This document shows positions 7,890 through 20,646 of a stretch of DNA of 32,000 nucleotides, piece after piece (position 1 is the first letter of the stretch; each line of letters begins with the position of its first letter). Both the position numbers and the translations under genes were made by a program. The notes below the pieces were generated by a model. The model saw nothing but the letters and a program-made list of their open reading frames with translations, did no database searches and was not told where the DNA came from. The DNA is from an uncultured Kingella sp. (lineage in GTDB: Bacteria; Pseudomonadota; Gammaproteobacteria; Burkholderiales; Neisseriaceae): positions 10,704 to 42,703 of the forward strand of contig CAUVGV010000001.1 in assembly GCA_963551505.1 (NCBI GenBank), given 5' to 3'.

Positions 7890-8032
7890 CGCTCCGCAAT
7901 CCGCCGTTAAAGCAAAAATAGCGATTAGACCAAAATAGACCACCCCAGCAGCGCGATGTGCCACTCAAACGAGTGTTTGCCTATCCCGCGCCTTAAACGC
8001 GTTTAAAACGCAACAGAGCGCGATTTCTGCCC

Positions 8033-8058
8033 GCAGCCGTTTTCAGGCTGCTTTTTTT
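8033..8058 (+). terminator. Intrinsic terminator immediately upstream of late promoter box 1
   Basis: GCAGCC-gttttca-GGCTGC stem followed by seven T. Confidence 0.65.
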
Positions 8059-8099
8059 AATGCGCGTTAAAAGTTTTTCAGGCTGCCTATCCGCATAAT
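8054..8099 (+). promoter_or_regulatory. Late promoter 1 (head operon): activator box plus -10
   Basis: TTTTTAATGCGCGTTAAAAG at 8054-8073. CATAAT at 8094-8099 starts 23 nt after the second TTAA. No -35; a DUS (8077-8088) sits in the spacer. The first gene starts at 8130. Confidence 0.6.
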
Positions 8100-8129
8100 C
8101 CACCGCAACCAAACCCACGAGACACCGCC

Positions 8130-9233
8130 ATGCGCCATGAAATCTTTCGCGCTGGCACTCGCACGGACAACAACGGGCGCACGATTACCATTACCCCCGA
8201 ACAGGTTGCCGCGATTGCCAGCCACTATTCCCCAAACAAGCACGAAGCCCCGATTGTGGTCGGACACCCGAGCTTGAACGCGCCCGCCTATGGTTGGGTA
8301 GGCAGCCTGAAAGCCGAGAACGGCACGCTGTATGCCGACTTCGCCCAAGTGGACGACGACTTTGCCGAATTAGTACGCAAAGGGCGATACAAAAAAGTTT
8401 CCGCCAGCTTCTACCCGCCGAACCACCCCAGTAACCCGCAGCCTGAAAATTGGTATCTGCGCCACGTTGGCTTTTTGGGCGCACACCCGCCCGCCGTGAA
8501 AGGGCTGGCGGCGATTGATTTTGCCGATGATGAAGACGGCGTAGTTTCTTTTGGCGAGAGCGATTGGGTATTGGCGCGTGTGTTACGTAATCTGCGTGAG
8601 TGGCTGATTGGCAAAGACGGCTTAGAAACCGCCGACCGCGTGCTGCCCGACTGGCAAATTGAAGCTGTTGTGCCACCGCCCGCGCCTGAACCCGAAGCCA
8701 TGCCGAATAATTTTTCTGAACCCCGTGATAAGGACGACCCCATGACCCCTGAACAACAGTTAGAAGCCGAGCGCAAAGCGCGTGAGCAAGCCGAAGCCGA
8801 AGCCAAGCAAGCCCGCGAAGAATTGGCGAAGTTGCAAGCCGAGCAGGAAAAATCTCTGCGCGATGCGGCACATAAGCAAAACGCCGATTTTGCCGAAGGC
8901 TTGATTAAAGCAGGCAGCCTGAAACCTGCTGACAAAGAGTTAATCGTTGCCGTGCTGGATTTTGCTGATTACCCCGAAGCTGCACCTGCCGATTTTGGCG
9001 AAGGCAAAAAGCTGTCGGACGCGCTCAAAGACTTTTTGCGCGGCGGCGTGCCGATTGTGGCAGCGGGCGAAATTGCTACCGCCGAACGCGCAGGCAGCCT
9101 GAAAACAATCGGCAGCAGCGACTTTGGCGAATACGCCAACCCTGCCGCGCAATCGCACCACGAACGCGCCCTTGCCTTGGCGAAACGCGAAAACATCTCT
9201 TACGAAGAAGCGGCACGCCGCACCGTCCAATAA
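8130..9233 (+). CDS. Head maturation protease / scaffold fusion (Mu gpI/Z-like)
   Basis: The N-terminal half (FRAGTRTDNNGRTITITPEQV...VVGHP...YGWVGSLK) resembles Mu-like prophage protease I proteins. The C-terminal half is charged coiled coil (EQQLEAERKAREQAEAEAKQAREELAKLQAEQEK), typical of scaffolds. It lies directly before the capsid gene. Confidence 0.75.
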   Translation: MRHEIFRAGTRTDNNGRTITITPEQVAAIASHYSPNKHEAPIVVGHPSLNAPAYGWVGSLKAENGTLYADFAQVDDDFAELVRKGRYKKVSASFYPPNHPSNPQPENWYLRHVGFLGAHPPAVKGLAAIDFADDEDGVVSFGESDWVLARVLRNLREWLIGKDGLETADRVLPDWQIEAVVPPPAPEPEAMPNNFSEPRDKDDPMTPEQQLEAERKAREQAEAEAKQAREELAKLQAEQEKSLRDAAHKQNADFAEGLIKAGSLKPADKELIVAVLDFADYPEAAPADFGEGKKLSDALKDFLRGGVPIVAAGEIATAERAGSLKTIGSSDFGEYANPAAQSHHERALALAKRENISYEEAARRTVQ

Positions 9234-9254
9234 CCCCTGCATAAAGGAAACCTG

Positions 9255-10187
9255 ATGAGCACTTCCCATTTACGCAATCTGCGCGGGCAGATTGACCCCG
9301 TTTTAACCAACCTTGCGCTGGGCTACAAGCAAGCCGAGTTTATCGGCGAAAAGCTGTTCCCTGTGGTGTTTACCGATAAAGAAGGCGTGAAAGTGCCTAA
9401 GTTTGGCAAAGGCTCGTTTGTGGAATACGAAACCGCGCGCGCAGTGGGCGCAGCCAGTAATGTGATTACGCTGGAGAGTCCCAGCTATCTGCCGATTGTG
9501 CTGGAAGAGCACGATTTGATGGCGGGTGTGGACTACCGCGAACAAGCCGAAAGCCTGTTTGACGAGCAAGCCAAAGCCACGCGCCGCGCGGTATTGGGCG
9601 TGCAGCTGCGGCAGGAATTGGAAACCGCCGCGCTGCTGCAAGCCAAGCAGTCTTACGAGAGCGGGCATTACAAAGACCTGTCCGCCGCCACCCAATGGAG
9701 CGATGCCAACGCCAACCCTGTGAAAGACGTGGCAGACGCGAAAGAAACCGTCCGCGCCGCTTGTGGCGTAAAGCCGAATGTGCTGGTGCTGGGCGCAAGC
9801 GTGGCGCACGCGCTGTCGTACCACCCTGCGCTGCAAGCGATGCTGGGCAGCGGTGAGCGCAAACTGATTACGCTGGATTTGCTGAAAATCTTGTTTGAAG
9901 TGGATGAAGTCGTTATCGGCAACGCCGTTTCTGCGCCCGCGCCGAACAAGCAAACCCACGACGTGTGGGGCAAATTTGCCGCGCTGATTGTGCGCCCGAC
10001 CGTGCACAGCTCGGGCAACGACGAAGGCGAGCCTGCCTTTGGCTACACCTTCCGCCGCAAGGGGATGCCCGTGGTTGACCGCTTTGAGCAAAACGGCGGC
10101 AAAACGGAATACGCCCGCTATACCGACATCCGCAAGGTGGCTGCCGTGGGCGGCGCGTGCGGGTTCTTGTTTGATAAGGCTGTTTAA
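9255..10187 (+). CDS. Major capsid protein (gpT / capsid protein E-like)
   Basis: 310 aa, AGGAAA upstream, follows the protease/scaffold gene. The N-terminus LRGQIDPVLTNLALGYKQAEFIGEKLFP is characteristic of this capsid family as I recall it. Confidence 0.8.
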   Translation: MSTSHLRNLRGQIDPVLTNLALGYKQAEFIGEKLFPVVFTDKEGVKVPKFGKGSFVEYETARAVGAASNVITLESPSYLPIVLEEHDLMAGVDYREQAESLFDEQAKATRRAVLGVQLRQELETAALLQAKQSYESGHYKDLSAATQWSDANANPVKDVADAKETVRAACGVKPNVLVLGASVAHALSYHPALQAMLGSGERKLITLDLLKILFEVDEVVIGNAVSAPAPNKQTHDVWGKFAALIVRPTVHSSGNDEGEPAFGYTFRRKGMPVVDRFEQNGGKTEYARYTDIRKVAAVGGACGFLFDKAV

Positions 10188-10193
10188 TTGATT

Positions 10194-10226
10194 TTCAGGC
10201 TGCCTGAAACAATGAGGCAGCCTGAA
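10194..10226. repeat. Inverted DUS pair (hairpin) after the capsid gene
   Basis: TTCAGGCTGCCT (10194-10205) and AGGCAGCCTGAA (10215-10226) give a 12-bp stem with a 9-nt loop. No strong T-run follows, so this may be an attenuator or RNA-stability element rather than a full terminator. Confidence 0.6.
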
Positions 10227-10237
10227 AAGGAGTAAAT

Positions 10238-10507
10238 ATGAAAAAGCTAGAAGGCTATCAATTAGCCGCTTTGATTGAACGCGCGGAGTATCAACGCTTT
10301 GGCGCAACCACCACCGTGTGCGCGTTGATTTTGAATAATGGCTTTGTGGTAATTGGTGTTTCAGGCTGCCTGAACACCGCCGATTTTGATGAAGCCATTG
10401 GGCGTGATACCGCCTACAAAGACGCGTTTGCCAAATTATGGGAGCTGCAAGGCTTCCACCTGAAAACCCTATTTGCAGAAAGTGAGGCTTCCGATGACTC
10501 CAACTAA
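10238..10507 (+). CDS. N4 Gp49 / Sf6 gp66-family phage protein
   Basis: The segment TTTVCALILNNGFVVIGVSGCLNTADFDEAIGRDTAYKDAFAKLWELQGF matches the conserved pattern of that family from memory. Confidence 0.7.
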   Translation: MKKLEGYQLAALIERAEYQRFGATTTVCALILNNGFVVIGVSGCLNTADFDEAIGRDTAYKDAFAKLWELQGFHLKTLFAESEASDDSN

Positions 10508-10826
10508 AAAAATCGTGCTGGTAACCACCGCGCAAGCCGCTGCGCCAATTGTGGCGAACCGCTTTATCGGCTTTGATGGCAAACAAGCCAAAGCCGCCGC
10601 GCCTGTGCTGGGCGTATCGCCGCGCGATGCCGAAGCGGGCGACACAATGGCGGTGGAGTGCATCGGCATTGCGCTGGTGGAAGCAGGCGGCGCGGTTGCC
10701 GCAGGCGCGAAAGTCGCGTCCGATGCCAACGGCTGCGCGGTGGCGGGCGAGACCCAAGCCGCAGGCTATGCCGTAACCGCTGCCGCCGCGGCGGGCGATG
10801 TGATTGCTGTGTTGTTGAAAGGTTAA
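10494..10826 (+). CDS. DUF2190-family head decoration-like protein
   Basis: Gly/Ala-rich beta-type sequence (VLGVSPRDAEAGDTMAVECIGIALVEAGGAVAAGAKV). Internal ATG at 10494. Located after the capsid gene. Confidence 0.7.
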   Translation: MTPTKKIVLVTTAQAAAPIVANRFIGFDGKQAKAAAPVLGVSPRDAEAGDTMAVECIGIALVEAGGAVAAGAKVASDANGCAVAGETQAAGYAVTAAAAAGDVIAVLLKG

Positions 10827-10829
10827 GCC

Positions 10830-11141
10830 ATGACGAAATTTTATCTTGCCAACACCCCGCTGATTTTGACTGCCGATGACGGCACGGATTACCGCGTGGA
10901 GCGCGGCGAAGTGGCGGAATTGACAGACGAGCAATACGCGCAAGTCGCAGCGCACGTTACGCCTGCTGGCACGCCTGAAACAACAGGGCAGCCTGAAACG
11001 GAAATCACGCCAACAGGGCAGCCTGAAACCGCACAAACGGCAAGCGAACCCGCAGACAGCGAGCCGCCTGCCGCGCAGCCTGAAACCGCCACCGAGCCGA
11101 CCGAGAAACCCAAACGCGGTAAGGGCGACAAAGCGGAGTAA
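10830..11141 (+). CDS. Hypothetical head-associated protein with a DUS-encoded QPET-repeat tail
   Basis: 103 aa. The C-terminal half GQPETEITPTGQPETAQT...AAQPETATEP is encoded by three DUS cores (10986, 11016, 11073). Confidence 0.6.
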   Translation: MTKFYLANTPLILTADDGTDYRVERGEVAELTDEQYAQVAAHVTPAGTPETTGQPETEITPTGQPETAQTASEPADSEPPAAQPETATEPTEKPKRGKGDKAE

Positions 11142-11147
11142 CGCGCC

Positions 11148-11573
11148 ATGTACATCAACGCCGATGACCTAGCCCGCGCCATGAGCAAAACCGAGCTGGT
11201 GCAGCTGACCAATGACGACCCGCGCGCCACCGAGCCGAACGATGATGTGGTGCAAACCGCCATTGCCTACGCCTGCGATTTGGCAGACGGCTATTTGAGC
11301 GGGCGTTATCCGCTGCCGTTGGCAACAACGCCGACCATTCTGCCACCCTTGTGCATCAACATCGCGCGGCACTTTTTGCACGCGCGGCGGATTAACCGCG
11401 CTGATTTCCCCAAAACGCTGGAAACCGCGTATCAAGCCACGCTCAAAACGCTGGAACAAATCCGCGACGGCAAAATCCACATCGGCATAGATACCGACAA
11501 CAAACCCCGCCAGCCCGAGCGCGGCGCGTATCACGTCCGCGCGGCGGCAAAGCACGATTGGAGCGGCTACTGA
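11148..11573 (+). CDS. Mu gp36-like (DUF1320) head-tail connector protein
   Basis: The segment AIAYACDLADGYLSGRYPLPL...LCINIARHFL is the hallmark DUF1320 pattern. Confidence 0.75.
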   Translation: MYINADDLARAMSKTELVQLTNDDPRATEPNDDVVQTAIAYACDLADGYLSGRYPLPLATTPTILPPLCINIARHFLHARRINRADFPKTLETAYQATLKTLEQIRDGKIHIGIDTDNKPRQPERGAYHVRAAAKHDWSGY

Positions 11574-12073
11574 TGTCTGCCACCCAGCCGATTATTGACG
11601 CGCTGCGCGACCATGTGCAGCAGGCGATTCCGTGGGTGCAGGTGGACGAGTTCCCCGAACGCCCCGCCGATTACCAGTTTATCCACCCCACAGGCGCGGT
11701 GCTGGTGGCGTATCAAAGCAGCCAGTTCACGCGGATTGAAGGCTTGGGGCATATCGCCCAGCAGCGCGACATCACGCTGCAATTAACCGTGATTGGCGCG
11801 AGCCTGCACGGTGAGAGCGGCGCGTTGGCGATTTTGGATGCGGTGCGCCTTGCCGTTGTCGGCTTTGCCCCGCCCAACTGCCTGCCCTGCCATTTAATCC
11901 GCGAGCAGTTTTTAAGCGAGACCGCAGGCGCATGGCAATACGCGCTCACGGTGCAGACCGAAACCCAGCAGGTAGAGCTGCGGCAGCCTGAAAACCTGAC
12001 CACCCTTGTGCGCACACTGCACCGCCAGCGCGGCGCGCCGCTTGACCCCCAGTTAAAACCCAAACAGCCATAG
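11573..12073 (+). CDS. Gp37-like head-tail joining / tail completion protein
   Basis: TGATG overlap with the upstream gene. Its size and its position between the gp36-like gene and the sheath gene fit this role. The family call is weak. Confidence 0.55.
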   Translation: MSATQPIIDALRDHVQQAIPWVQVDEFPERPADYQFIHPTGAVLVAYQSSQFTRIEGLGHIAQQRDITLQLTVIGASLHGESGALAILDAVRLAVVGFAPPNCLPCHLIREQFLSETAGAWQYALTVQTETQQVELRQPENLTTLVRTLHRQRGAPLDPQLKPKQP

Positions 12074-12083
12074 GAGACACCAC

Positions 12084-13481
12084 ATGGCAGCAGCATTCCA
12101 CCACGGTTCAGAAACCATCCGCATTGACGGCGGCTCGTCCCCCGTTTACACCGTTGACGGCGCGATTACCGCCATCATCGGCACCGCACCCGCAGGCGCG
12201 GTCAATGAATTAACCCTATGCCAAACCGCCAAAGACTTTGCCAAGTTTGGCACAGCAACAGGCAAAGGCTTCACTATCCCCGATGCCGCGAACATTTGGA
12301 CGCGCTACCAATCGGGCGTTGCCTATGTGGTCAATGTGTGCGACCCCGCGCGGCACAAATCCAGCGTAACAGGCGAAGCCTTAACCATAGACCCCGACAC
12401 GCTCATCGCCCGCACCGTGCACGGCGCCATCCAAGCGGGCAGCTACACGCTCAACGGCAACGGCGGCGCGTTGGTGGAAGGGCGCGATTATGTGGTAAAC
12501 GATTTGATTACTGGCGAAATTCAATTCAAAACCCTGCCCACCACACCCACCGCCGATTACAGCTACACCGACCCCGCCAAAGTAACCGAAGCCGACATTA
12601 TCGGCGGCTATGTGGCAGCCACGGGCAAACGCACGGGCATGGAGCTGGTGAAAGAAGGCTTTAACCGCTTTGGCGCGGATGCCAAAATCATCATCGCCCC
12701 CGAATTTGACCGCACCGCCACCTGCGCCGCCGCACTGATTACGCTGGCGGACAACCTAAACGCCATCGCCTACCTAGACGCGCCACGCGGTACAACATTA
12801 AGCCAAGCGATTACAGGGCGCGGCAACTTGGGCAGCATCAACTTCAACACATCCAGCGACCGCGTTCAGCTCTTTTTTCCACACGTTGTCGGGCTGCTCG
12901 GCGTAGAAAGTCTCGCCACCCATGCCGCAGGCTTGCGCATGAAAACCGATGTGGAGCACGGCTACTGGTTCAGCATTTCCAACCGCGAGCTATCGGGCGT
13001 AACAGGCTTGGAAATCGGCTTAACCGCCCGCGTGGACGACCCGCAATCGGAAACCAACCGCCTAAACGAAAAAGGCATCACCACCGTGTTCAACAGCTAC
13101 GGCACAGGCTACCGCCTATGGGGCAACCGCTTGGCGTGCTTCCCCAGCGTGTCGCACATCAAAAACTTTGAAACCGCGCAGCGCACGGGCGATGTGATAG
13201 ACGAAAGCCTGCGCCGCTTTGACCTGCAATACATGGATTTGCCGATAGACGAAGCCCTGCTGGATACGCTGTTGGCGGGCTACCGCACCTATTTTGGCAC
13301 GCTGCAATCCATTGTTGGCTTTACCGTGAACTTGGATTACGACTACGACTTGGTGGACGTGTTCAGCAAAGGGCAAGTGCCGATTGTGTACGAATACACG
13401 CCCAAGCTGCCGATGGAGCGCGCCACCAATACCAGCGTGATGACACGCAAATATTTGGCGAACTTGGTATCCAGCAGCTAA
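12084..13481 (+). CDS. Contractile tail sheath protein
   Basis: 465 aa, with an N-terminus FHHGSETIRIDGG typical of P2 FI / Mu L-type sheaths. Followed by the tube gene. Confidence 0.9.
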   Translation: MAAAFHHGSETIRIDGGSSPVYTVDGAITAIIGTAPAGAVNELTLCQTAKDFAKFGTATGKGFTIPDAANIWTRYQSGVAYVVNVCDPARHKSSVTGEALTIDPDTLIARTVHGAIQAGSYTLNGNGGALVEGRDYVVNDLITGEIQFKTLPTTPTADYSYTDPAKVTEADIIGGYVAATGKRTGMELVKEGFNRFGADAKIIIAPEFDRTATCAAALITLADNLNAIAYLDAPRGTTLSQAITGRGNLGSINFNTSSDRVQLFFPHVVGLLGVESLATHAAGLRMKTDVEHGYWFSISNRELSGVTGLEIGLTARVDDPQSETNRLNEKGITTVFNSYGTGYRLWGNRLACFPSVSHIKNFETAQRTGDVIDESLRRFDLQYMDLPIDEALLDTLLAGYRTYFGTLQSIVGFTVNLDYDYDLVDVFSKGQVPIVYEYTPKLPMERATNTSVMTRKYLANLVSSS

Positions 13482-13510
13482 TCGTTTAAATCAACACAAG
13501 GACAATCAAC

Positions 13511-14026
13511 ATGAGCGAAATCAACGCCATTTACAACGCCAACGTCTATCTCAACGGCACCAACCTAATGGGGCAAGCCGCCGAGTTTAAAATGCCCGAG
13601 ATAGAAATCTCCCAAGACGAGCACAAAGGCTTGGGTATGGTGGGCACCATCAAACTGCCCAGCGGCGTGGAAGCCTTGGAAGGCGAGATTACTTGGAACA
13701 GCATTTATCCCGCCGTTGCCGAAAAAGCCTACCATCCGTTTAAAGCCGCCCAGCTGATGGTGCGCGGCAATCTGCAAACCTTTAATGCGGCAGGCTTAAA
13801 AACCGAAGCGCCCGTGGTGGTAACCGCCACCGTGATGTTTAGCAAAAACGCGGTCGGCACGTTTAAGCCCAAGGAAAAATCGGAGCATCCGACCACCTTT
13901 CAGGCGCACGAAATCCGCATGGTCATCGGCGGGCGCGAAACGCTGTACTACAACGCCTTTACCAATGTGTACCGCGTGGGCGGTGTGGACGCATTGAGCC
14001 AGTTCCGCAAAAACATCGGCGCGTGA
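13511..14026 (+). CDS. Tail tube protein (P2 FII-like)
   Basis: 171 aa, NANVYLNGTNLMGQAAEFKMPEIE...LPSGVEALEGEITWNS, the typical Phage_tube pattern. Confidence 0.9.
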   Translation: MSEINAIYNANVYLNGTNLMGQAAEFKMPEIEISQDEHKGLGMVGTIKLPSGVEALEGEITWNSIYPAVAEKAYHPFKAAQLMVRGNLQTFNAAGLKTEAPVVVTATVMFSKNAVGTFKPKEKSEHPTTFQAHEIRMVIGGRETLYYNAFTNVYRVGGVDALSQFRKNIGA

Positions 14027-14060
14027 TAAGGCAGCCTGAAAAAGGCAGCCTGAAACAGCA

Positions 14061-14097
14061 AAACCAATCTTTCCAACAAGGAGAGATTGGTTTTTTT
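14061..14097 (+). terminator. Intrinsic terminator after the tube gene
   Basis: AAACCAATCT-ttccaacaaggag-AGATTGGTTT stem followed by a T-run. Preceded by two tandem DUS copies (14029, 14043). Confidence 0.7.
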
Positions 14098-14138
14098 AAT
14101 GCGCGTTAAAAGCGTTTCAGGCAGCCTGAAAGCATAAT
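14093..14138 (+). promoter_or_regulatory. Late promoter 2 (tail chaperone / tape measure operon)
   Basis: The same 20-mer TTTTTAATGCGCGTTAAAAG at 14093-14112. CATAAT at 14133-14138 lies again 23 nt after the second TTAA. A DUS (14119-14130) sits in the spacer. Confidence 0.6.
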
Positions 14139-14177
14139 CTGCCTTGTTTTTAACCCCTTTGAGATAAGGAAACCATT

Positions 14178-14474
14178 ATGGCAACCACAACCGCCAAACA
14201 ACTGACCCAAAGCCTAAACGGCGAAACCACTATTGAACTTGCCTACCCCGTGCGCTTGGCAACGGGCGCGGTGTTAGACAAAGTAACCGTGCGCCGCCCG
14301 CGCGTGGGCGATTTGCGTGCCGTAGCGCATTTAAACAGCGATGCCGAGCAAGAACTCGCTATGTTTAGCCGCTTATCAGGACTAGTTCCCGAAGATTTAG
14401 ATGAATTGGATATGACCGACTACAAGGCGATTCAAGACTGGTTTCGCACCACACAGCAAGGCGAAGCAGCATAA
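14178..14474 (+). CDS. Tail assembly chaperone (P2 gpE-like / Mu gp41-like)
   Basis: 98 aa, AAGGAAA upstream. Located between the tube and tape measure genes. Its 3' end overlaps an open alternative frame. Confidence 0.75.
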   Translation: MATTTAKQLTQSLNGETTIELAYPVRLATGAVLDKVTVRRPRVGDLRAVAHLNSDAEQELAMFSRLSGLVPEDLDELDMTDYKAIQDWFRTTQQGEAA

Positions 14475-14639
14475 AAGCAGCGCAGAAGTCAATCAGGAAT
14501 TGTTGCGTGCCTGCGCCGATATGGCATGGTGGTTTGGGTGGAGTGTTCAAGAGATTTATGAATTACCCATAGACGAATTTGCCGACTGGCTAGATGAAGC
14601 CAATCGGCAAATAAAAGCGAACTACCGTAGGGGCGATTA
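14416..14639 (+). CDS. GpE'-like extension frame of the tail chaperone. It is either a frameshift product with 14178-14474 or is separately initiated at ATG 14521.
   Basis: The frame is open from 14416. It encodes ...MAWWFGWSVQEIYELPIDEFADWLDEANRQIK, resembling the P2 GpE-family C-terminal peptide. It lies in the +1 (equivalently -2) frame relative to the upstream gene. Confidence 0.55.
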
Positions 14640-14894
14640 AGCGTGTTTGCGCCACAGCCAAGCGATTGCCAAGGCTACGGCAAAACTGGCAGGTGCAAGC
14701 ACCACCGATGCGCCACAGCCTATCAGCGTACCAAAGAAAATAATGGAAAACGCAGATAACCATGCGCTGCCCACGCTACTGAAATCTGCTAAACCCCATG
14801 CAACATAGCCAAAGACCAATGCAAGCGACACAGCAAACAGCGCATAGGCGATGCGGGTAGCTTGTTCTAATAGGGAATGTGGCTGTGCTTGCAT
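14637..14894 (-). CDS. Small integral membrane protein (about 3 TM segments); antisense moron inside the tail operon
   Basis: 85 aa containing IAYALFAVSLALVFGYVAW, LSAFSIIFFGTLIGCGASVVL and FAVALAIAWLW. AGGATAAAACC precedes the ATG on the minus strand. An AT-rich upstream region lies at 14895-14956. The stop triplet is shared with the convergent E' frame. Confidence 0.6.
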   Translation of the reverse strand: MQAQPHSLLEQATRIAYALFAVSLALVFGYVAWGLADFSSVGSAWLSAFSIIFFGTLIGCGASVVLAPASFAVALAIAWLWRKHA

Positions 14895-14956
14895 GGTTTT
14901 ATCCTTTCAGGCTGCCTAAAAATTAAGTTAAACAACTATAAAACAAGAGTATTTTT

Positions 14957-17671
14957 ATGTCAAACGAGTTAGCTATATCGGTCGCGATTGGTGCGGTTTT
15001 GCGTTCTGGTTTTACGGCGGTATTTGGGCGCGCGCGTGATGCTTCGCGTGGCTTGGGTAGAGAAATTGACAATGTGCGCCGCCGACAAGAACGATTGGGC
15101 GCAGCAATGGCGCGTGCGGTTGCTCACCCTGCGCGGAACTTGGGGCAACTTAACCGCTTGTATGTTCGCATGGGCACGGCAATCAATAACGCTACTCGGG
15201 CGCAGGAGCGGTTAAATAATGCGATTGCGCGGCAAGATGCAGCGCGGTTGCACCGCCGCGAGTTACGCAGTCAAATGGGCGAAACCGCAGGTCATGCTAT
15301 GGTGCTGGGTGCGCCTGTTGCAGCGGCAGTTCGCACATTTACGAGACAGGAAGATGCGGAAACAGAGCTAAAAATTACCATGATGAACAAAGATGGGGGC
15401 TTTGGCTTATTTGAGGAAGTTCGTAAAGGTGCTGCTGAACTGGGGGCGCAGTTGCCCGGTACGACAACAGAGTTTTACAACTTGGCAAAGGCATTGAAAT
15501 CGCAAGGCATCTCCGACCAAATGCTGGCAAACGGCGGTTTGCGAACATCGGCAGAGCTAAATGTGTTGATGAATATGGATCAGCAAGGCGGCGGTGAATT
15601 TTTTGCCAAGATGATTGAAGCACGCGGCTTGAAAGAAAGCGAGTTCAGTCAGGCGGCAGATTTGACCCAACGCGCATATTTTGCTTTTGGTTTAAAAAAG
15701 GAAGATATGTTTGAAAGCATGAAATACAGCTCGGCAAATGCGCGAATTTTGAATTTAACAGGCTTGGAAAACTATAAAAAACTGTTGGCGATTGAAGGTG
15801 CAGGGGCGCAGATTGGTTTGGAGGGCAGCCAGTTTGGTACGAATTTTTCCATGATGCTCACCCAACTGGCGCAAGGACCGATAGCCATAAAACAAGCCAA
15901 AAAAGGCATGAAAATAGAAGCCAAAGCCTATATGGAAGAAGCGGGCGTTTCGTTTGAGTTTTTTGATAAAAAGGGCAAGTTCAAAGGCTTGGATGCGATG
16001 ATAGGCGAAATAGAAAAGCTCAATATCATCAAAGAAAAGCTGGGCGAGGAAAAAGCCAGCATTGTGGCAGATGAGTTTTTTGGTACGCAAGCCAGCCGTG
16101 CCGCTATGGCAATTGCACTTAAAGGGCGAGCGGGCATACAAGCAAATATAGAATTGATGCAGCAGCAGGCGGATATGCAGGCACGTATCAAGCTGAAAAC
16201 TGCCACATTGAGTGCGGCATTGGAAAGTTTGGGCGGCGTGGCAGAAGCAACTGCCGCCACGTTTGGCAGCATATTTGCCGATGATATTAAAGCCTTTGCT
16301 GCCGTTGCCAACCGCTTTTTGGAAAATACTTTGCAGCCTTGGCTGGCTCAAAATAAAGGCTTGATTAAAAGCGTATTGGGTGTATTAGGTGGGTTTTTTG
16401 CCGCCAAAATGGGGGCGTTGGCATTGTCTTATGGCATCAGCATGGCTTTGATGCCGCTTCGCGCTATGGTGGTGGGCGTGAACAAAGTAGCTGCGGTGTG
16501 GCGCATGGCGCAGTTGATTATGCTGGGCGGCTCGCGCGCTTTGGTTACGGCTTTGCGATTGGTGGGGTTTTCAGCGCGTAGCGCAGCTGGGGTTGCTCGG
16601 TTTTTTTCAGGCAGCCTGCGCCTGCTCGGCTCGGGCTTGGGCTGGGTGCTGCGCGGCTTTACGGCGCTGACGGGCTATGTGCCGATTTTAATACGGGGTT
16701 TTGCTAGCTTGGGCGGTAAGCTGATTTTGGGTTCACTGAATTTAATCACACGGGCATGGGGCGTGTTTATGCAGGTTGGGCGCGTTGTAATTGGTTTTTT
16801 GCCCGCAATCGCCAATGCTTTTATGGCACTAGGGCGTTTTTTATTGATGACCCCAATTGGTATTGCGCTTACATTGATGGCAACCGCCGCTTATCTACTC
16901 TACACGCGCTGGGACGGCGTGGTCGGTGGGGCGAAATTGCTGTGGCAGGATTTGTGCAATGTAGTGGGTACGGTGGCTAATGCGATTACAGGCTTTTTTG
17001 CCAACGCGTGGGCAAACGTGCAAAGCGCGTTTAACGGCGGCTTGTCGGGCATCCTGGCATTGATTGCCAACTGGTCGCCGCTGGGCGTGTTTTATCAGGC
17101 GTTTGCCGCTGTGATGAGCTGGTTTGGCGTTACCCTGCCCGCGCAGTTTACAGGCTTCGGCGGTATGCTGATTGACGGCTTGGTCAACGGTATTCAGGCT
17201 GCCGCAGGACGCGTGATGGCGGCGATTCAGAACTTGGCGCAGCGGGCTAAAAACGCCTTTGCCAGCGTGATGGACATCCATTCCCCCAGCCGTGTGTTCC
17301 GTGCGTTCGGCGGCTATATCACGCAAGGCTTGGCGATTGGTGTGAACCAAGGTGCTGATTTGCCGGTAAACCGTGTCGCGCAGTTGGCGGGCAGCCTGAA
17401 AAACCGTTTTGCCGAACGCATGGGCGGTTTCCGCAGCGATTTGTCGGCGCGGCTGTCCGCCGGCGCGGAAGGTTTGCGCCAAGCGCGAAGCGAGCGGCAG
17501 GCGCAGCAGCAGGGCGCGGGCAGCGGCAGCATGGTGGTGCATTTTTCGCCCACCATTAACGCCGCGGGCGGCAATCGGCAAGAAATTGAAACGGCGTTGC
17601 AAATGGGGCTGCGAGAATTTGAACAACTGTTCCGCCGCATGATGGCGGAGCGCGAGCGGAGAGCGTATTGA
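14957..17671 (+). CDS. Tail tape measure protein
   Basis: 904 aa with a helical N-terminal part and a long hydrophobic Gly/Ala/Leu-rich central region. Canonical position after the chaperones. Confidence 0.9.
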   Translation: MSNELAISVAIGAVLRSGFTAVFGRARDASRGLGREIDNVRRRQERLGAAMARAVAHPARNLGQLNRLYVRMGTAINNATRAQERLNNAIARQDAARLHRRELRSQMGETAGHAMVLGAPVAAAVRTFTRQEDAETELKITMMNKDGGFGLFEEVRKGAAELGAQLPGTTTEFYNLAKALKSQGISDQMLANGGLRTSAELNVLMNMDQQGGGEFFAKMIEARGLKESEFSQAADLTQRAYFAFGLKKEDMFESMKYSSANARILNLTGLENYKKLLAIEGAGAQIGLEGSQFGTNFSMMLTQLAQGPIAIKQAKKGMKIEAKAYMEEAGVSFEFFDKKGKFKGLDAMIGEIEKLNIIKEKLGEEKASIVADEFFGTQASRAAMAIALKGRAGIQANIELMQQQADMQARIKLKTATLSAALESLGGVAEATAATFGSIFADDIKAFAAVANRFLENTLQPWLAQNKGLIKSVLGVLGGFFAAKMGALALSYGISMALMPLRAMVVGVNKVAAVWRMAQLIMLGGSRALVTALRLVGFSARSAAGVARFFSGSLRLLGSGLGWVLRGFTALTGYVPILIRGFASLGGKLILGSLNLITRAWGVFMQVGRVVIGFLPAIANAFMALGRFLLMTPIGIALTLMATAAYLLYTRWDGVVGGAKLLWQDLCNVVGTVANAITGFFANAWANVQSAFNGGLSGILALIANWSPLGVFYQAFAAVMSWFGVTLPAQFTGFGGMLIDGLVNGIQAAAGRVMAAIQNLAQRAKNAFASVMDIHSPSRVFRAFGGYITQGLAIGVNQGADLPVNRVAQLAGSLKNRFAERMGGFRSDLSARLSAGAEGLRQARSERQAQQQGAGSGSMVVHFSPTINAAGGNRQEIETALQMGLREFEQLFRRMMAERERRAY

Positions 17672-18570
17672 TGTTTGCACAACTGGGCGATGTAACGTTT
17701 GAGCTGCTGGGCAGCTTTGCCAGCTTGGAGGAAACCCACGCGGCGCAGTTTGCCCAGCATGATGTGCTGGCGGGGCGACCGCGTTTGCAAGCGATGGGCA
17801 ATGCGCTGACCGAGCTGCGGTTTAGCCTAAAACTGCATTGGAAGCTGGGCGATGTGGATGCGGCGTATCACGGGCTAATTGCCGCCAAAGAGGCTCAGCA
17901 GGCGGTGTCGCTGGTTTACGGCACGGGGCGGTTTGTCGGCTGGTTTGTGATTGAGCGGCTCACGGCGCGCACCTTGCAGATGGATAAAAACGGACGTACC
18001 GCCGCGCGGGAAATAGACGTAGAACTAAAAGAATTTGTCGGCGACCCGAACAACCCGCTGCCTGCGCCTGCGGTGGTTGCGGGCGAACAAAACCCGCTGC
18101 TGGCAATGCTGCCTGAAAGTATGCAAAACGCGCTGAATCCCATTGCGGAAAAAATCGGCACGGCGGTCAAAATCTATCGCGCGGTGGAAGACGACATCGG
18201 CGCAATGCAAAACCTGATTCAGGCGGCGCGGGAGATTAAAAACGACCCCGCAGGCGTGTTGAACTTGGTGGGCGATGTGCTGGGCGTGGCGGGCGGCGCG
18301 CTTGACCATTTAAACGGGCTGCCTGAAATCGTGCAGAGCTTGGACGATTTGGCGGGCGCGGCGCAGTTTGCCGCCCAAGCGGCGCAGGCGGCGCAGCAGA
18401 TGGGCAGCGCGGTGGGCGAATTTCGCGCGGGGATAGAGAGCGGCAGCGTGGGCGGCTGGTTTGGCGCGGGCGTTGCCGCGCTGGATGCGGCGGCAGATGG
18501 TTTGGGCAACGGCGCGGCGGCGGTGCAAACGCTGACCGCCTTTGTGGCGGCAAGGAGAGACGGCGCATGA
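17671..18570 (+). CDS. P2 gpU-like tail protein with a C-terminal Ala/Gly-rich extension
   Basis: The N-terminal segment FAQLGDVTFELL...GRPRLQAMGNALTELRFSLKLH...GRFVGWFVIERL follows the GpU pattern. TGATG overlap with the tape measure stop. Confidence 0.7.
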   Translation: MFAQLGDVTFELLGSFASLEETHAAQFAQHDVLAGRPRLQAMGNALTELRFSLKLHWKLGDVDAAYHGLIAAKEAQQAVSLVYGTGRFVGWFVIERLTARTLQMDKNGRTAAREIDVELKEFVGDPNNPLPAPAVVAGEQNPLLAMLPESMQNALNPIAEKIGTAVKIYRAVEDDIGAMQNLIQAAREIKNDPAGVLNLVGDVLGVAGGALDHLNGLPEIVQSLDDLAGAAQFAAQAAQAAQQMGSAVGEFRAGIESGSVGGWFGAGVAALDAAADGLGNGAAAVQTLTAFVAARRDGA

Positions 18571-18794
18571 GCATCAACGGCATTTTGGTTTACACCACGC
18601 AGGACGGCGACCGCTGGGACACCATCGCCCACAAGCATTACGGCAACGCGCTGGCGATTAACCGCCTGATTGCCGCCAACCCGCATCTGCCGCTTGCCGA
18701 GCAGTTTGCCAGCGGCTTGACCGTGTTTGTGCCTGTGGTGCGGCAGAGCGAAACGCAGCGGCAGGATTTGCTGCCGCCGTGGTTTGAAAATTAA
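18567..18794 (+). CDS. P2 gpX-like tail protein X (LysM-like)
   Basis: 75 aa, YTTQDGDRWDTIAHKHYGNALAINRLIAANPHLP. ATGA overlap with the upstream gene. Confidence 0.8.
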   Translation: MSINGILVYTTQDGDRWDTIAHKHYGNALAINRLIAANPHLPLAEQFASGLTVFVPVVRQSETQRQDLLPPWFEN

Positions 18795-18812
18795 CAGATT
18801 GGAGCGCACACC

Positions 18813-19943
18813 ATGTTAGACAGCCTATTAGACCGCCTTTCAGGCAGCCTGAAAAAACCTTTGCCCGCGCCGCCGCCCACATCGCACCCTGTTACCCGCC
18901 CTAACTTTGTGCTGACCTACGAGCAAAAAGACATCACCGCCAGCGTAGAGCCGTATTTGCTGTCGTTTAGCTACACCGATTATTTGGGCGAGCAGTCCGA
19001 TGAGCTGCAGCTGCACTTTGAAGATGTGGACGGACGCTGGCTGCGCACATGGTTTCCCGAGCAGGGCGACAAATTAAGCATCGGCTGCGGCGACCAGTTT
19101 ACAGGCTTAATCAACTGGGGCAGCTTTGAGCTGGCGGAGATTGAGTGGCAGCGCAATATGCAGGGCGGCGATGTGGTATCGCTCAAAGCCTTGTCCACAG
19201 GCATCCGCCGCGCCAACCGCACCTTGCAGCCCAAAGCCTACGAAAACATGATGCTCTCGGATATTGTCAAAATCATCGCCGCACGGCTGAAACTCACGGT
19301 TTCAGGCAGCATCAAGCCCATCAAAATCCAACGCATCACGCAGTATCAAGAGCGCGACGTGGAATTTCTCACCCGCTTGGCGCGGCAGTATGGGCACACG
19401 TTTAAGATTGTGGACAAAAAACTGGTGTTTACCCGCAACGATGCGCTCTCGCAGCAGGAAGCGGTGCTGGTGATGCAGCCTGAAAACCTGCTCTCCATCC
19501 GCATCCGCGACCTGATTAAAGGCGCGCCCGACAAGGCTGTGATTACGGGCTACGATGCGAAAAAGAAACGCGCCATCCGCGCCGAGCGCAAAACCAAACC
19601 GCTGCGCCCCAAAGCCCGCCGCAAAACATCCGCCGACACGCTTAAAATCACGCAGAGCAAGGGCGAGAGCCAAGCCGAAACCAACGCCCGCGCCGATGCT
19701 GCGCTGCAAGACGCGCAAGAGGAACGCTGCGCGGGCAATATCACGCTGTTTGGCAATGCGCTGTTGGTGGCGGGGCAAGTGATTGAATTGCAGCGCATCG
19801 GCAAATTCAGCGGCAGATATTTGGTCAAACAGGCGCGGCACGATTACAGCCAATCGCGCGGCTACATTACCGATTTGGAAATCAAAATGGTTGAATACAT
19901 TGCAGAAGAAAGTGAAAACGATGCGCCCCCAGCCCACCCATAA
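18813..19943 (+). CDS. P2 gpD-like late control / baseplate hub protein
   Basis: 376 aa. The segment FVLTYEQKDITASVEPYLLSFSYTDYLGEQSDELQLHFED is the typical Phage_GPD N-terminus. Confidence 0.85.
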   Translation: MLDSLLDRLSGSLKKPLPAPPPTSHPVTRPNFVLTYEQKDITASVEPYLLSFSYTDYLGEQSDELQLHFEDVDGRWLRTWFPEQGDKLSIGCGDQFTGLINWGSFELAEIEWQRNMQGGDVVSLKALSTGIRRANRTLQPKAYENMMLSDIVKIIAARLKLTVSGSIKPIKIQRITQYQERDVEFLTRLARQYGHTFKIVDKKLVFTRNDALSQQEAVLVMQPENLLSIRIRDLIKGAPDKAVITGYDAKKKRAIRAERKTKPLRPKARRKTSADTLKITQSKGESQAETNARADAALQDAQEERCAGNITLFGNALLVAGQVIELQRIGKFSGRYLVKQARHDYSQSRGYITDLEIKMVEYIAEESENDAPPAHP

Positions 19944-20499
19944 TTTTGCCGCCACCTTGCAGTTTGGCACCGTCGCCGCCGTGGACGCGGCAAAGCACAG
20001 CCTGCGCGTTACCCTGCCCGCGCTGGAAAACCTGCAAACCGACTGGCTGCCGATGATTACCCCCGCCGCGCTGGGCAACCAGTTTTACAGCCTGCCCGAT
20101 GTCGGCACGCTGGTGGTGTGCCTGCTGGACGCGCAGGGCGAAGGCGGCGCGGTGCTGGGCGCAATCTACAACGACGCCGACCCCGCGCCCGCCAGCAATG
20201 CCGATTTGCACGTTTTGCAGTACGGCAACGGCACGCGTATTGAGCACGACCGCAGCACGGGCAATGTGCTGGTTAAAACCAGTGGCAAAGTGTTGGTGCA
20301 GGCGGGCGAGGTTACCATTGACGCGCCCGAAACCACGACCACAGGCAATTTGCTGGTGCAAGGCAGTTTGACCTACCAAGGCGGTATGACGGGCAGCGGC
20401 GGTGCGGGCGCGGCGGCGCAAATTAACGGCAGTATCAATGTTACAGGCAATATTGATGCGGGCGGGGAGATTACGGGGGCGAAGCTGAACGAGCGGTAA
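19921..20499 (+). CDS. Baseplate assembly protein V / central spike (gpV-like)
   Basis: Internal ATG at 19921. The segment FGTVAAVDAAKHSLRVTLPALENLQTDWLPM is the gpV OB-fold pattern, followed by a C-terminal Gly-rich beta-helix-like tail. Confidence 0.85.
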   Translation: MRPQPTHNFAATLQFGTVAAVDAAKHSLRVTLPALENLQTDWLPMITPAALGNQFYSLPDVGTLVVCLLDAQGEGGAVLGAIYNDADPAPASNADLHVLQYGNGTRIEHDRSTGNVLVKTSGKVLVQAGEVTIDAPETTTTGNLLVQGSLTYQGGMTGSGGAGAAAQINGSINVTGNIDAGGEITGAKLNER

Positions 20500-20560
20500 A
20501 GAAAAATCGCCCCATCTGTTCCAATTCACAAAACAGCCGACACCAATACATTATCAAACA

Positions 20561-20606
20561 GCCGCGCAAAATTCCTGACGTCAGGAACTTTGCGCGGCAT
20601 TTTTTA
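20561..20606 (+). terminator. Strong intrinsic terminator after gpV (38-bp near-perfect palindrome plus T-run)
   Basis: GCCGCGCAAAATTCCTGAC / GTCAGGAACTTTGCGCGGC gives 19-bp arms with 1 mismatch, followed by ATTTTTT. The core TTCCTGACGTCAGGAA lies at 20572-20587. Confidence 0.75.
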
Positions 20607-20646
20607 ATCCGCATTAAAAGCCCCACGCAGCCTGAAACCCTATCAT
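20601..20646 (+). promoter_or_regulatory. Late promoter 3 (baseplate/fibre operon)
   Basis: TTTTTAATCCGCATTAAAAG at 20601-20620. TATCAT at 20641-20646 lies 23 nt after the second TTAA. A DUS core (20625-20636) sits in the spacer. The first gene starts at 20653. Confidence 0.55.

What the first reader, a model, noticed from the sequence alone, without database searches (positions are those of the whole stretch)
8054..20646. Three late operons share a TTAA-N6-TTAAAAG box at identical spacing to a -10: putative regulon of the single Mor-family activator
Seen: TTTTTAATGCGCGTTAAAAG occurs at 8054-8073 and identically at 14093-14112, and TTTTTAATCCGCATTAAAAG at 20601-20620. In all three cases the second TTAA ends exactly 23 nt before a -10-like hexamer (CATAAT 8094, CATAAT 14133, TATCAT 20641). 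None has a recognisable -35. Each box directly abuts the T-run of an intrinsic terminator and precedes the first gene of the head (8130), chaperone/tape-measure (14178) or baseplate/fibre (20653) block. Each spacer also contains a DUS core (8077, 14119, 20625). Established: Mu Mor and C are paralogous activators that bind imperfect dyads centred near -43.5 of promoters lacking a -35. Here the dyad centre lies about 30 nt upstream of the -10 start, i.e. about -42 to -44. Inference: the one Mor/C-family gene present (7484-7831) activates all late promoters directly. This would be a one-tier cascade rather than Mu's two-tier Mor then C cascade.
Basis: partly seen in the sequence, partly recalled or inferred. 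Interest (0 to 1): 0.7.

Follow-up and report, generated by a model that had tools for sequence, protein, structure and literature searches.

The report
Mor-type boxes at prophage late promoters
A 20-bp palindromic box placed exactly where phage Mu's Mor/C activators bind marks the late-gene promoters of a BcepMu-like transposable prophage of an oral Neisseriaceae bacterium; it is a well-supported new example of a known type of phage switch, not a new mechanism.

Summary
The box TTTTTAAT[G/C]CGC[G/A]TTAAAAG occurs three times, each 20 nt before an xAxxAT hexamer, each after a terminator hairpin and each before a late operon (scaffold/head, tail chaperone/tape measure, baseplate gpW).

The core TTTAA-N6(G/C-rich)-TTAAA has the same anatomy as Mu's mapped Mor site in Pm: 5-bp inverted repeats, a 6-bp G/C-rich spacer and a 22-nt gap to the -10.

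In about 170 related loci the box, spacing and -10 are conserved while the flanks diverge. These span Neisseria, Bergeriella, Conchiformibius, Pasteurella phage AFS-2018a and Burkholderia phage BcepMu.

Only one Mor-family gene is found in the window and in near-complete relatives, so a single-activator late regulon is the best reading.

- Relatives have a fourth late operon (lysis/terminase/portal, transcribed leftward) with the same box; it lies just left of the window.
- mor has its own terminator and σ70-type promoter.
- BcepMu's single Mor homolog is already annotated "late transcriptional activator".

The spacer DUS is real, sits at a fixed offset and follows the host's DUS dialect. All regulatory claims rest on sequence comparison; nothing was tested experimentally.

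The parts
7395..7431 (+). Terminator hairpin after gemA (7395-7417, built on a DUS). It overlaps a sigma-70-like promoter, TTTTCA-17-TATAAT (7403-7431), upstream of mor.
   Evidence: dG -13.7. The promoter hexamers and spacing are conserved in L005 (TTTTCA-17-TATTAT) and L101 (TTTTCA-17-TAGAAT), read from the sequences printed.
7484..7831 (+). mor: the single Mor/C-family activator gene (115 aa).
   Evidence: PF08765, E = 3e-30. PDB Mor 1rr7 E = 7e-7 and C 9l0x E = 2e-6. Family residues G50, Y54, P56, R66, D67, F74, G76, N78 and Y94 are conserved with Mu Mor and C. It is the only Mor-family ORF in the window.
7859..7889 (+). Intrinsic terminator after mor.
   Evidence: dG -14.7, z = -3.7.
7974..8013 (.). 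Conserved non-coding block GTTTGCCTATCCC...TTAAACGCGTTTAAAACGC. It contains the degenerate box-like palindrome at 7991-8006. Function unknown.
   Evidence: Conserved across all clades in alignment A4. No -10 follows it at the canonical gap.
8033..8058 (+). Terminator hairpin (8033-8051) plus T-run. The T-run merges into the left flank of box 1.
   Evidence: dG -12.
8054..8073 (+). Box 1 (core dyad TTTAA-TGCGCG-TTAAA, 8056-8071): predicted Mor operator of the head promoter.
   Evidence: Identical or nearly identical at the orthologous position in relatives.
8077..8088 (-). AG-kingDUS 12-mer inside the promoter spacer.
   Evidence: Fixed offset and host dialect in relatives.
8094..8099 (+). -10 hexamer CATAAT of the head promoter. 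Predicted start near 8106; the scaffold/protease-like gene starts at 8130.
   Evidence: The start site is inferred, not mapped.
14060..14097 (+). Terminator hairpin plus T-run after the tail tube gene.
   Evidence: dG -20.3, z = -8.2.
14093..14112 (+). Box 2 (core 14095-14110): predicted Mor operator of the chaperone/tape-measure promoter.
   Evidence: Conserved at about tube + 0.57 kb in 27 of 28 complete loci.
14116..14130 (.). Overlapping simDUS/kingDUS dyad in the spacer.
14133..14138 (+). -10 hexamer CATAAT. The tail assembly chaperone gene starts at 14178 and has an AAGGAA Shine-Dalgarno sequence.
20561..20605 (+). Terminator hairpin (20561-20598) plus T-run after the spike (gpV) gene.
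   Evidence: dG -28.5, z = -7.8.
20601..20620 (+). Box 3 (core TTTAA-TCCGCA-TTAAA, 20603-20618): predicted Mor operator of the baseplate/fibre promoter.
   Evidence: Conserved at tube + 6.5 to 7.6 kb in relatives.
20628..20636 (+). DUS 9-mer core CAGCCTGAA in the spacer.
20641..20655 (+). -10 hexamer TATCAT (20641-20646), followed 6 nt later by the gpW ATG (20653). This predicts a leaderless mRNA.
   Evidence: The ATG lies 6-7 nt after the -10 in 13 non-redundant relatives and in BcepMu and the Pasteurella phage.

Best explanation
The window holds most of a BcepMu-like transposable (Mu-type) prophage of a Neisseriaceae host that uses the AG-kingDUS dialect.

Proposed mechanism:
- Mor (7484-7831), the last protein of the early region, binds as a dimer or tetramer to the dyad TTTAA-N6-TTAAA(AG).
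- The dyad is centred about 42.5-43.5 bp upstream of the start site. It overlaps the missing -35 and recruits sigma-70 RNA polymerase to a -10 hexamer 22 nt downstream of the core.
- This switches on the head, tail chaperone/tape-measure and baseplate/fibre operons.
- In the complete element it also switches on a fourth, leftward lysis/terminase/portal operon that lies outside the window.
- A strong intrinsic terminator directly upstream of each box insulates each operon from read-through, so late expression depends on Mor alone.
- The gpW operon is probably expressed as a leaderless mRNA.

Shown here:
- The motif, its statistics, its geometry and its conservation.
- A single Mor-family gene.
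- The identity of geometry with Mu's mapped Mor site.

Inferred, not shown:
- That Mor binds the box.
- The transcription start sites.
- Recruitment of RNA polymerase.
- The insulating role of the terminators.
For: 1. Three exact boxes and no other copy within 3 mismatches, against 0.01 expected.
2. The anatomy matches the published Mor/C operator: two 5-bp inverted repeats, a G/C-rich 6-bp spacer, a 16-bp element centred at -43.5 that replaces the -35 (PMC4390567, PMC2582627, PMC4287176). Across 195 non-redundant sites the N6 spacer is 70% G+C.
3. On the Mu sequence the Mor site AGTAA-AGCCGG-TTAAT ends 22 nt before TATCCT. The window cores also end 22 nt before their hexamers.
4. Over 2.6 Mb of related loci, an .A...T hexamer follows the relaxed core at a gap of 22 in 175 of 480 non-redundant matches, against 4-40 at any other gap.
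5. Positions that the search did not constrain are still conserved at 1.1-2.0 bits. Flanks carry 0.1-0.3 bits.
6. Of 28 complete tube-anchored loci, 26 have box plus -10 at all three positions. Shuffles give about 1 hit per 574 kb.
7. The same architecture precedes the lysis, protease, chaperone and gpW genes in Pasteurella phage AFS-2018a (Mor 43% identical) and in BcepMu (39%). BcepMu's TAAAGCCGATTAA nearly equals Mu Pm's TAAAGCCGGTTAA.
8. There is one Mor-family ORF per element.
9. The gpW ATG lies 6-7 nt after the -10 in several clades. This fits a real start site at that position.
Against: - There is no experimental datum for this element: no start-site mapping, no binding assay, no expression data.
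- Many related loci are close relatives, so counts overstate the number of independent observations. The argument rests on the divergent clades (tube protein 64-71% identical) and on the two cultured phages.
- The half-sites do not covary with the Mor recognition helix, so there is no specificity-swap evidence linking this protein to this site.
- By half-site sequence the box is about equally near Mu's Mor site (7 of 10 positions) and Mu's C site in Pmom (6 of 10).
- The window Mor has R instead of the first G of the conserved GG motif.
- The AlphaFold model was poor (pLDDT 66).
Confidence: 0.8

Rival explanations
1. The box is bound by a different protein, not by Mor. Candidates are the prophage repressor or a Ner-like protein keeping late operons off, or a host nucleoid or regulatory protein.
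For: A palindrome overlapping the -35 region could equally serve a repressor. No covariation ties the box to Mor's recognition helix. The element encodes other HTH proteins: a 96-aa wHTH protein and a repressor in relatives.
Against: The promoters lack any -35, so they need activation, not only repression. The 5-6-5 geometry and the 22-nt gap equal the mapped Mor site of Mu. The box co-occurs with Mor homologs in phages of three bacterial families whose repressors and host factors differ.
Confidence: 0.08
2. There is still a two-tier cascade. Mor activates only some promoters, or an unrecognised non-Mor-family second activator is needed for some of them.
For: Several small ORFs in the early region have no family assignment. 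Box 3 has a different central spacer (CCGC rather than GCGC) and a weaker -10. mor has its own promoter/terminator module.
Against: All late promoters share the same half-sites, AG extension and spacing. In Mu, Mor and C sites differ in half-site sequence. No second Mor/C paralog is detectable.
Confidence: 0.07
3. The repeats have no regulatory role. They would be by-products of a duplicated terminator/DUS intergenic cassette, or of the terminator T-run.
For: Each box merges with a terminator T-run, and DUS elements are common in intergenic DNA here: 15 of 55 cores lie in 1.8 kb of intergenic sequence.
Against: The hairpins upstream are unrelated in sequence. Neisseria-clade head promoters keep the box without an adjacent hairpin. 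The box and the -10 are conserved while the flanks are not. Spacing to the -10 is fixed.
Confidence: 0.03
4. TTAAAAG acts as a -35-like element for an alternative or phage-modified sigma factor, with the hexamer as its -10.
For: The right half plus AG is the most conserved part. Mor gives a faint Sigma70_r4 hit (E = 0.006, below the cut-off).
Against: No sigma-factor gene was found among the ORFs scanned. The left half-site is as conserved as the right, which indicates a symmetric binder. A 20-nt gap between the proposed '-35' and the -10 is atypical (my own knowledge of sigma-70 promoters).
Confidence: 0.02

Closest known systems
Phage Mu middle promoter Pm and its activator Mor
   Same: The activator gene lies right after gemA at the end of the early region. 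The promoter has a -10 and no -35. The 16-bp dyad has 5-bp inverted repeats and a G/C-rich 6-bp spacer, and it ends 22 nt before the -10. The half-sites share xxTAA...TTAAx. The Mu site also overlaps a terminator hairpin (PMC4390567, PMC4287176).
   Different: In Mu, Mor drives only one promoter (Pm, leading to C), not the structural genes. Here the Mor-type site heads the morphogenesis operons. The protein is only 27% identical to Mu Mor and lacks about 25 N-terminal residues.
[quoted passage not shown]
   Same: The functional role is the same: several late operons (lysis, head, tail) are switched on by one Mor/C-family protein through a dyad near -43.5 in -35-less promoters. There are four such promoters per genome (PMC2582627).
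   Different: The C half-sites are of the ATTAT/ATAAC type (Pmom ATTAT-GCCCCA-ATAAC), not TTTAA/TTAAA. The operon boundaries differ: here they fall at chaperone and gpW, whereas Mu has P. The methylase gene at the right end has no box here, unlike the C-dependent mom. Identity to C is 26%.
Burkholderia phages BcepMu and phiE255 (Bcepmuvirus) and KS10
   Same: The gene modules are the same: rve transposase, AAA transposition protein, DUF3164, HU, GemA, Mor, Mu-type TerS, portal and F, and a P2-type tail. There is a single Mor homolog, annotated 'late transcriptional activator'. KS10 has the same GemA-Mor-protease order. Box-like sites with the same spacing lie before holin, gp32, gp41 and gp49. 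Neisseria prophages similar to BcepMu have been reported (PMC9238386).
   Different: Relative to BcepMu, the block running from Mor to gpG is inverted. The BcepMu left half-site is weaker (GCTAA). I found no paper in the searchable library that describes these promoters.
P2/186 late promoters activated by Ogr/Delta/B zinc-finger proteins
   Same: The tail and baseplate genes here are P2-type (FI, FII, E, T, U, X, D, V, W, J, I) and are organised in several late operons.
   Different: From my own knowledge, P2 late promoters use a TGT-N12-ACA dyad centred near -55 and an Ogr-type activator. Neither that motif nor an Ogr/Delta-family protein appeared in the ORFs scanned. The regulation here is Mu-type grafted onto P2-type tail genes.

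Membership tests
[quoted passage not shown] | Significant match to the family profile above the curated cut-off. | tested here: met
   104.8 bits against a cut-off of 24.9, E = 3e-30, covering profile positions 1-106 of 107.
[quoted passage not shown] | Small protein (about 100-150 aa) with a C-terminal HTH, and sequence similarity to the solved Mor and C structures. | tested here: met
   115 aa. PDB 1rr7/9l0y (Mor) E = 7e-7; 9l0x (C) E = 2e-6. The HTH region aligns with both.
[quoted passage not shown] | Conserved beta-strand linker residues (GG..Y.P.G in C, per PMC2582627). | tested here: inconclusive
   G50, Y54 and P56 are conserved. The first G is R49 in the window protein (relatives have GG), and the last G is not conserved in the BcepMu-like clade.
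[quoted passage not shown] | Acidic N-terminal half and basic C-terminal half. | tested here: not met
   pI is 6.7 for the N half and 6.8 for the C half, with equal acidic and basic counts. This is a descriptive tendency of the family, not a strict criterion.
[quoted passage not shown] | Mor-like fold: dimerisation domain, beta linker and HTH domain. | tested here: inconclusive
   The AlphaFold2 monomer model has mean pLDDT 66 and pTM 0.44, with the C-terminal half merged into one long helix. It was too poor for a fold search.
Mor/C-dependent promoters (Mu Pm, Plys, PI, PP, Pmom class) | Recognisable -10 and no usable -35. | tested here: met
   The hexamers are CATAAT, CATAAT and TATCAT. The sigma-70 scan called nothing at these sites.
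Mor/C-dependent promoters (Mu Pm, Plys, PI, PP, Pmom class) | 16-bp dyad: two 5-bp inverted repeats separated by a G/C-rich hexanucleotide. | tested here: met
   TTTAA-TGCGCG-TTAAA (twice) and TTTAA-TCCGCA-TTAAA. The N6 spacer is 70% G+C over 195 non-redundant sites.
Mor/C-dependent promoters (Mu Pm, Plys, PI, PP, Pmom class) | Dyad centred at about -43.5 relative to the transcription start. | tested here: inconclusive
   The geometry relative to the -10 is identical to Mu Pm (22-nt gap). That gives -42.5 to -43.5 for a start 7-8 nt after the -10. The start sites themselves are not mapped.
Mor/C-dependent promoters (Mu Pm, Plys, PI, PP, Pmom class) | Transcription strictly dependent on the activator, and activator footprint on the dyad. 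| not testable with these tools
   This needs EMSA or footprinting and reporter or RNA assays.
BcepMu-like transposable phages | Mu-type transposition and early module plus Mu-type packaging and portal genes plus a P2-type contractile tail. | tested here: met
   rve transposase, AAA_22 protein, DUF3164, HU, GemA and Mor. P2-type tail genes. Gp27, TerL, Portal_Mu and Mu_F in the left arm of the close relative L091. Module-for-module match to BcepMu.

The most novel reading that the evidence does not exclude
The host-dialect DUS at a fixed offset inside the promoter spacer may not be a passive passenger. It begins 5-6 nt after the core in 108 of 195 non-redundant promoters, as TTCAGGCTGCC in AG-kingDUS hosts and as TTCAGACGGC in Neisseria proper.

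One possibility is that it is a working part of the Mor-dependent promoter. In Mu, the bases just downstream of the Mor/C site are needed for activation. A second possibility is that the prophage keeps it there so that its regulatory junctions, and with them the prophage, are taken up efficiently by natural transformation. In either case the same 12 bp would be under dual selection and would be re-tuned each time the phage lineage changes dialect group.
Probability: 0.12. Interest if true: 0.6.

Novelty: new member of a known kind. Interest (0 to 1): 0.4.

Why it matters
- It gives a concrete, testable operator consensus: TTTAA-N6-TTAAAAG, then 20 nt, then the -10. It also gives a promoter map for a prophage family that is widespread and barely studied. 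The family occurs in Neisseria, Kingella-type hosts, Bergeriella and Conchiformibius, with relatives in Pasteurella and Burkholderia.
- The Mor/C mechanism has been worked out only in coliphage Mu. This result indicates that it operates with the same geometry in Betaproteobacteria, with a single activator doing the job of Mu's Mor plus C.
- The consensus can be used to annotate late operons and to tell intact prophages from decayed ones. It can also be used to build Mor-inducible expression cassettes for Neisseriaceae.
- The orthologous spacer DUS in different dialects is a clean natural example of DUS turnover at a fixed site.

Tried and rejected
- The single Mor protein used as a query on genome contigs confirmed no relative. 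The tube-protein alignment worked instead.
- Megablast of 7400-21100 against the phage records found nothing. Only protein-level relatives exist there.
- I first suspected a recent deletion of the lysis, terminase and portal genes, and possibly of a C paralog, between mor and the scaffold gene. I rejected this because the Mor-then-scaffold order is conserved in all relatives and in KS10, and the missing genes sit in a leftward arm left of the repressor.
- The AlphaFold2 model of Mor was low-confidence, so I ran no fold search.
- Rfam at gathering threshold found no known RNA family in the window.
- I looked for an operator shared between the mor promoter region and the early control region of L091. 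Only one 8-mer is shared, which is not informative.
- I compared the conserved 7974-8013 block with Mu's strong gyrase site. Only a 10-nt match (TTTAAAACGC, E = 0.06) was found, which is suggestive at most.
- Extra composite hits in the early region of Neisseria-clade loci (TTTAACCGAGTTTCAAAG) lie inside coding sequence and carry a mismatch. I treated them as chance or cryptic sites.
- The library searches found no paper describing these boxes. The BcepMu genome paper itself (Summer et al. 2004, from my own knowledge) did not come up in the library searches, so I could not check it.

Full report
**Observation**

TTTTTAATGCGCGTTAAAAG lies at 8054-8073 and at 14093-14112, and TTTTTAATCCGCATTAAAAG lies at 20601-20620. 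Each ends 20 nt before CATAAT, CATAAT or TATCAT.

No further copy exists within three mismatches. The six matches are the three near-palindromic sites read on both strands, against 0.01 expected in dinucleotide shuffles. The sigma-70 consensus scan calls nothing at these positions, so none has a usable -35.

Each box is preceded by a stable hairpin whose T-run runs into the box. The energies are dG -12, -20.3 and -28.5 kcal/mol, with z-scores of -2.9, -8.2 and -7.8. The three hairpins are unrelated in sequence.

**Context**

Pfam scans show that the window holds most of a Mu-type transposable prophage.
- The early region carries a Ner-like gene end, a wHTH protein, DUF3102, an rve transposase, an AAA_22 MuB-like protein, DUF3164, HU, GemA and Mor (7484-7831; PF08765, E = 3e-30).
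- The late region carries a scaffold/protease-like gene (8130), capsid, cement, Mu gp36 and gp37, sheath and tube. After box 2 come the chaperone and tape measure, then gpU, X, D and V. After box 3 come gpW, J, I, a fibre and a fibre chaperone, then a Dam-type methylase.
- The element ends near 25.9 kb. Beyond that lies a minus-strand conjugation/T4SS cluster.

No lysis, terminase or portal genes lie between mor and the scaffold gene. I first suspected a deletion that could also have removed a C paralog. That is wrong.
- The Mor-then-scaffold order recurs in every relative found and in Burkholderia phage KS10 (PMC2628397).
- The close relative L091 shows where the missing genes are. Left of the repressor sits a leftward arm with a CHAP endolysin, gp27, TerL, Mu portal, Mu F and a morphogenesis protein.
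- The modules match Burkholderia phage BcepMu one for one, with the block from Mor to gpG inverted.

**Comparative evidence**

I anchored on the tail tube gene and on the DUF3102 gene and collected about 170 related loci. They come from a Conchiformibius MAG, Neisseriaceae bacterium B1, N. lactamica, N. sicca, N. polysaccharea, Bergeriella denitrificans and many IMG/VR contigs.

- The box recurs on the coding strand before the scaffold, chaperone and gpW genes, always 20 nt before an xAxxAT hexamer.
- The upstream hairpins and downstream leaders differ between clades.
- With a relaxed core (..TAA-N6-TTAA.), an .A...T hexamer follows at a gap of exactly 22 nt in 175 of 480 non-redundant matches. 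Every other gap from 15 to 30 gives 4-40.
- Over 195 non-redundant promoters, positions that the search did not constrain are conserved. Core position 1 carries 2.0 bits, position 15 carries 1.9, the following AG 1.5 and 1.3, a C in the spacer 1.5, and the -10 AA 1.1 and 1.6. Flanks carry 0.1-0.3 bits, and the N6 spacer is 70% G+C.
- Of 28 loci that span all three positions, 26 have all three composite sites. Shuffling gives about 1 hit per 574 kb.
- A fourth site with the same architecture (TTTTTAAAGCGCATTAAAAG, 20 nt, GATAAT) heads the leftward lysis/terminase/portal arm in relatives. It lies about 2 kb upstream of the DUF3102 gene, which places it about 1.5 kb left of window position 1.
- Pasteurella phage AFS-2018a (Mor 43% identical) has TCTTTAAAGCGCTTTAAAA 22 nt before a -10 upstream of its lysis, protease, chaperone and gpW genes.
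- BcepMu (Mor 39% identical) has box-like sites with the same spacing before holin, gp32, gp41 and gp49.

**Comparison with Mu**

The literature describes the Mor site as two 5-bp inverted repeats separated by a G/C-rich hexanucleotide. This 16-bp element is centred at -43.5 and replaces the -35 (PMC4390567), spanning -51 to -36 (PMC4287176). The C sites of Plys, PI, PP and Pmom share that geometry (PMC2582627).

I placed Pm on the Mu sequence. With +1 at L173:725, the published -57G and -54A fall on a G and an A. The Mor site is then AGTAA-AGCCGG-TTAAT, and it ends 22 nt before TATCCT.

The window cores TTTAA-TGCGCG-TTAAA and TTTAA-TCCGCA-TTAAA end 22 nt before their hexamers. The geometry is therefore identical. 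BcepMu's TAAAGCCGATTAA is almost the same string as Pm's TAAAGCCGGTTAA.

Mu's C site in Pmom reads ATTAT-GCCCCA-ATAAC. By half-site sequence the box is not clearly nearer to Mor's site than to C's.

The protein is equidistant as well, at 27% identity to Mor and 26% to C. It keeps G50, Y54, P56, R66, D67, F74, G76, N78 and Y94.

**One activator**

An HMM built from the Mor homologs found exactly one Mor-family ORF in the window and one in each of the relatives that returned a hit (20 loci scanned; N. polysaccharea L014 gave no significant hit). This includes L091 plus L019, which together cover almost a whole 36-kb element. The next-best hits have E > 0.2. Unassigned small ORFs gave no Mor hit in Pfam.

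A single-activator late regulon is therefore the best reading. It is not unprecedented, because RefSeq already calls BcepMu gp01 a 'late transcriptional activator'.

In this clade mor is not simply the tail of the early operon. A DUS-based terminator (7395-7417) follows gemA and overlaps a sigma-70-like promoter (TTTTCA-17-TATAAT). The hexamers and spacing of that promoter are conserved in L005 and L101. A timing step may therefore sit at mor itself.

**Accessory features**

DUS:
- The window is rich in DUS. It has 29 AG-kingDUS 12-mers (dialect identified from PMC7371117).
- The spacer DUS is more than background. In 121 of 195 non-redundant promoters the spacer holds a DUS core.
- In 108 of them TTCAG[AG]C begins 5-6 nt after the core, in one orientation, and in the host's dialect. 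It reads TTCAGGCTGCC in this clade and TTCAGACGGC in Neisseria proper.

Leaderless gpW:
- The gpW ATG lies 6 nt after the -10 in the window.
- It lies 6-7 nt after it in 13 non-redundant relatives, in BcepMu and in the Pasteurella phage.
- This predicts a leaderless mRNA and independently supports the -10 assignment.

**Rivals**

- A different binder, such as a repressor or a host factor, is disfavoured. The promoters lack a -35, the geometry is Mu-identical, and the box co-occurs with Mor across three bacterial families.
- A passive terminator/DUS cassette is disfavoured. The hairpins are unrelated, and Neisseria-clade head promoters keep the box without an adjacent hairpin.
- A hidden second activator cannot be excluded without experiments.

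**Verdict**

This is a new, well-footprinted member of the Mor/C-dependent promoter class. It is useful for annotation and easy to test, but mechanistically ordinary. All binding, start-site and activation claims are inferences from sequence.

Noticed in passing
L091 7570-7615 (minus strand); equivalent to about 1.5 kb left of window position 1: Relatives have a fourth late promoter with the same box (TTTTTAAAGCGCATTAAAAG, 20 nt, GATAAT). It drives a leftward arm: CHAP endolysin, gp27 TerS, TerL, Mu portal, Mu F and a morphogenesis protein. These genes are absent from the window because the window starts inside the Ner-like gene.
   Followed up: yes
Relatives, e.g. L091 7536-7570 (minus strand), L005 10532-10560, L009 4826-4857; not present at the three window promoters: In many relatives a stable hairpin plus T-run lies between the -10 and the start codon. 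This holds for 42 of 44 lysis-arm promoters, 30 of 43 scaffold promoters and 21 of 22 long-leader gpW promoters. The 5' arm begins right after the -10, so a transcript started 7 nt downstream would lack most of it. My idea is that this is a terminator embedded in the promoter: it would stop read-through transcripts but not Mor-initiated ones. Start sites are unmapped.
   Followed up: partly
window 20641-20655: The gpW (gp25-like) start codon lies 6 nt after the -10, which predicts a leaderless mRNA. The same arrangement is seen in BcepMu (CAACAT ggccgc ATG) and in Pasteurella phage AFS-2018a (TAATAT cagggct ATG).
   Followed up: yes
window 7395-7483: mor has its own control region. It holds a DUS-based terminator after gemA, an overlapping sigma-70-like promoter (TTTTCA-17-TATAAT, conserved in L005 and L101), and AT-rich palindromes (ATAATATTGATATTAT in the window; TGAAACAGCGTTTCA in L005, with a degenerate counterpart in the window). 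In Neisseria-clade relatives gemA runs straight into mor instead. No operator shared with the early control region was found.
   Followed up: partly
window 7974-8013: The non-coding block GTTTGCCTATCCC...TTAAACGCGTTTAAAACGC is conserved across all clades upstream of the head-promoter box. It sits at about the centre of the ~35.5-kb element, the same place as Mu's strong gyrase site between G and I. The only match to the Mu site is TTTAAAACGC (E = 0.06). Its function is unexplained; it could be an auxiliary Mor site, a gyrase site or something else.
   Followed up: partly
window 14637-14963 (minus strand): An 85-aa ORF with no family match lies on the opposite strand in the gap between the chaperone and tape-measure genes. 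A near-consensus sigma-70 promoter precedes it (TTGACA-17-TATAGT, 11 of 12 matches, 14963-14935). A gene is also called there in a related contig (82 aa). It may be a moron expressed in the lysogen.
   Followed up: no
window 25040-25900: The D12-class adenine methylase at the right end occupies the position of Mu mom. It has a sigma-70-like promoter (TTGACA-16-AACAAT with TG) and no Mor box, unlike the C-dependent mom of Mu.
   Followed up: no
window 25945-32000 (minus strand): Directly right of the prophage end lies a conjugation/T4SS-type cluster: TraL, an OmpA-domain protein, a DsbA-like thioredoxin and a T2SSE/VirB11-type ATPase. It carries both AG-kingDUS and three Neisseria-type GCCGTCTGAA copies (26578, 31815, 31989). 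That mix hints at an ICE that has moved between DUS dialect groups.
   Followed up: no
L106 5322, L114 2229, L135 7896, L143 8260, L150 7309 (Neisseria-clade loci): These loci have an extra rightward composite site (TTTTTAATGCGCTTTAAAAT, 20 nt, TAATAT) about 1.2-2.1 kb upstream of the DUF3102 gene, near the repressor/early control region. It is not present in the window, and its target gene was not examined.
   Followed up: no
window 7628-7633 (Mor residues 49-50): The window Mor and its closest homologs have RG where more distant relatives, Mu Mor and Mu C have the conserved GG of the beta-strand linker.
   Followed up: no
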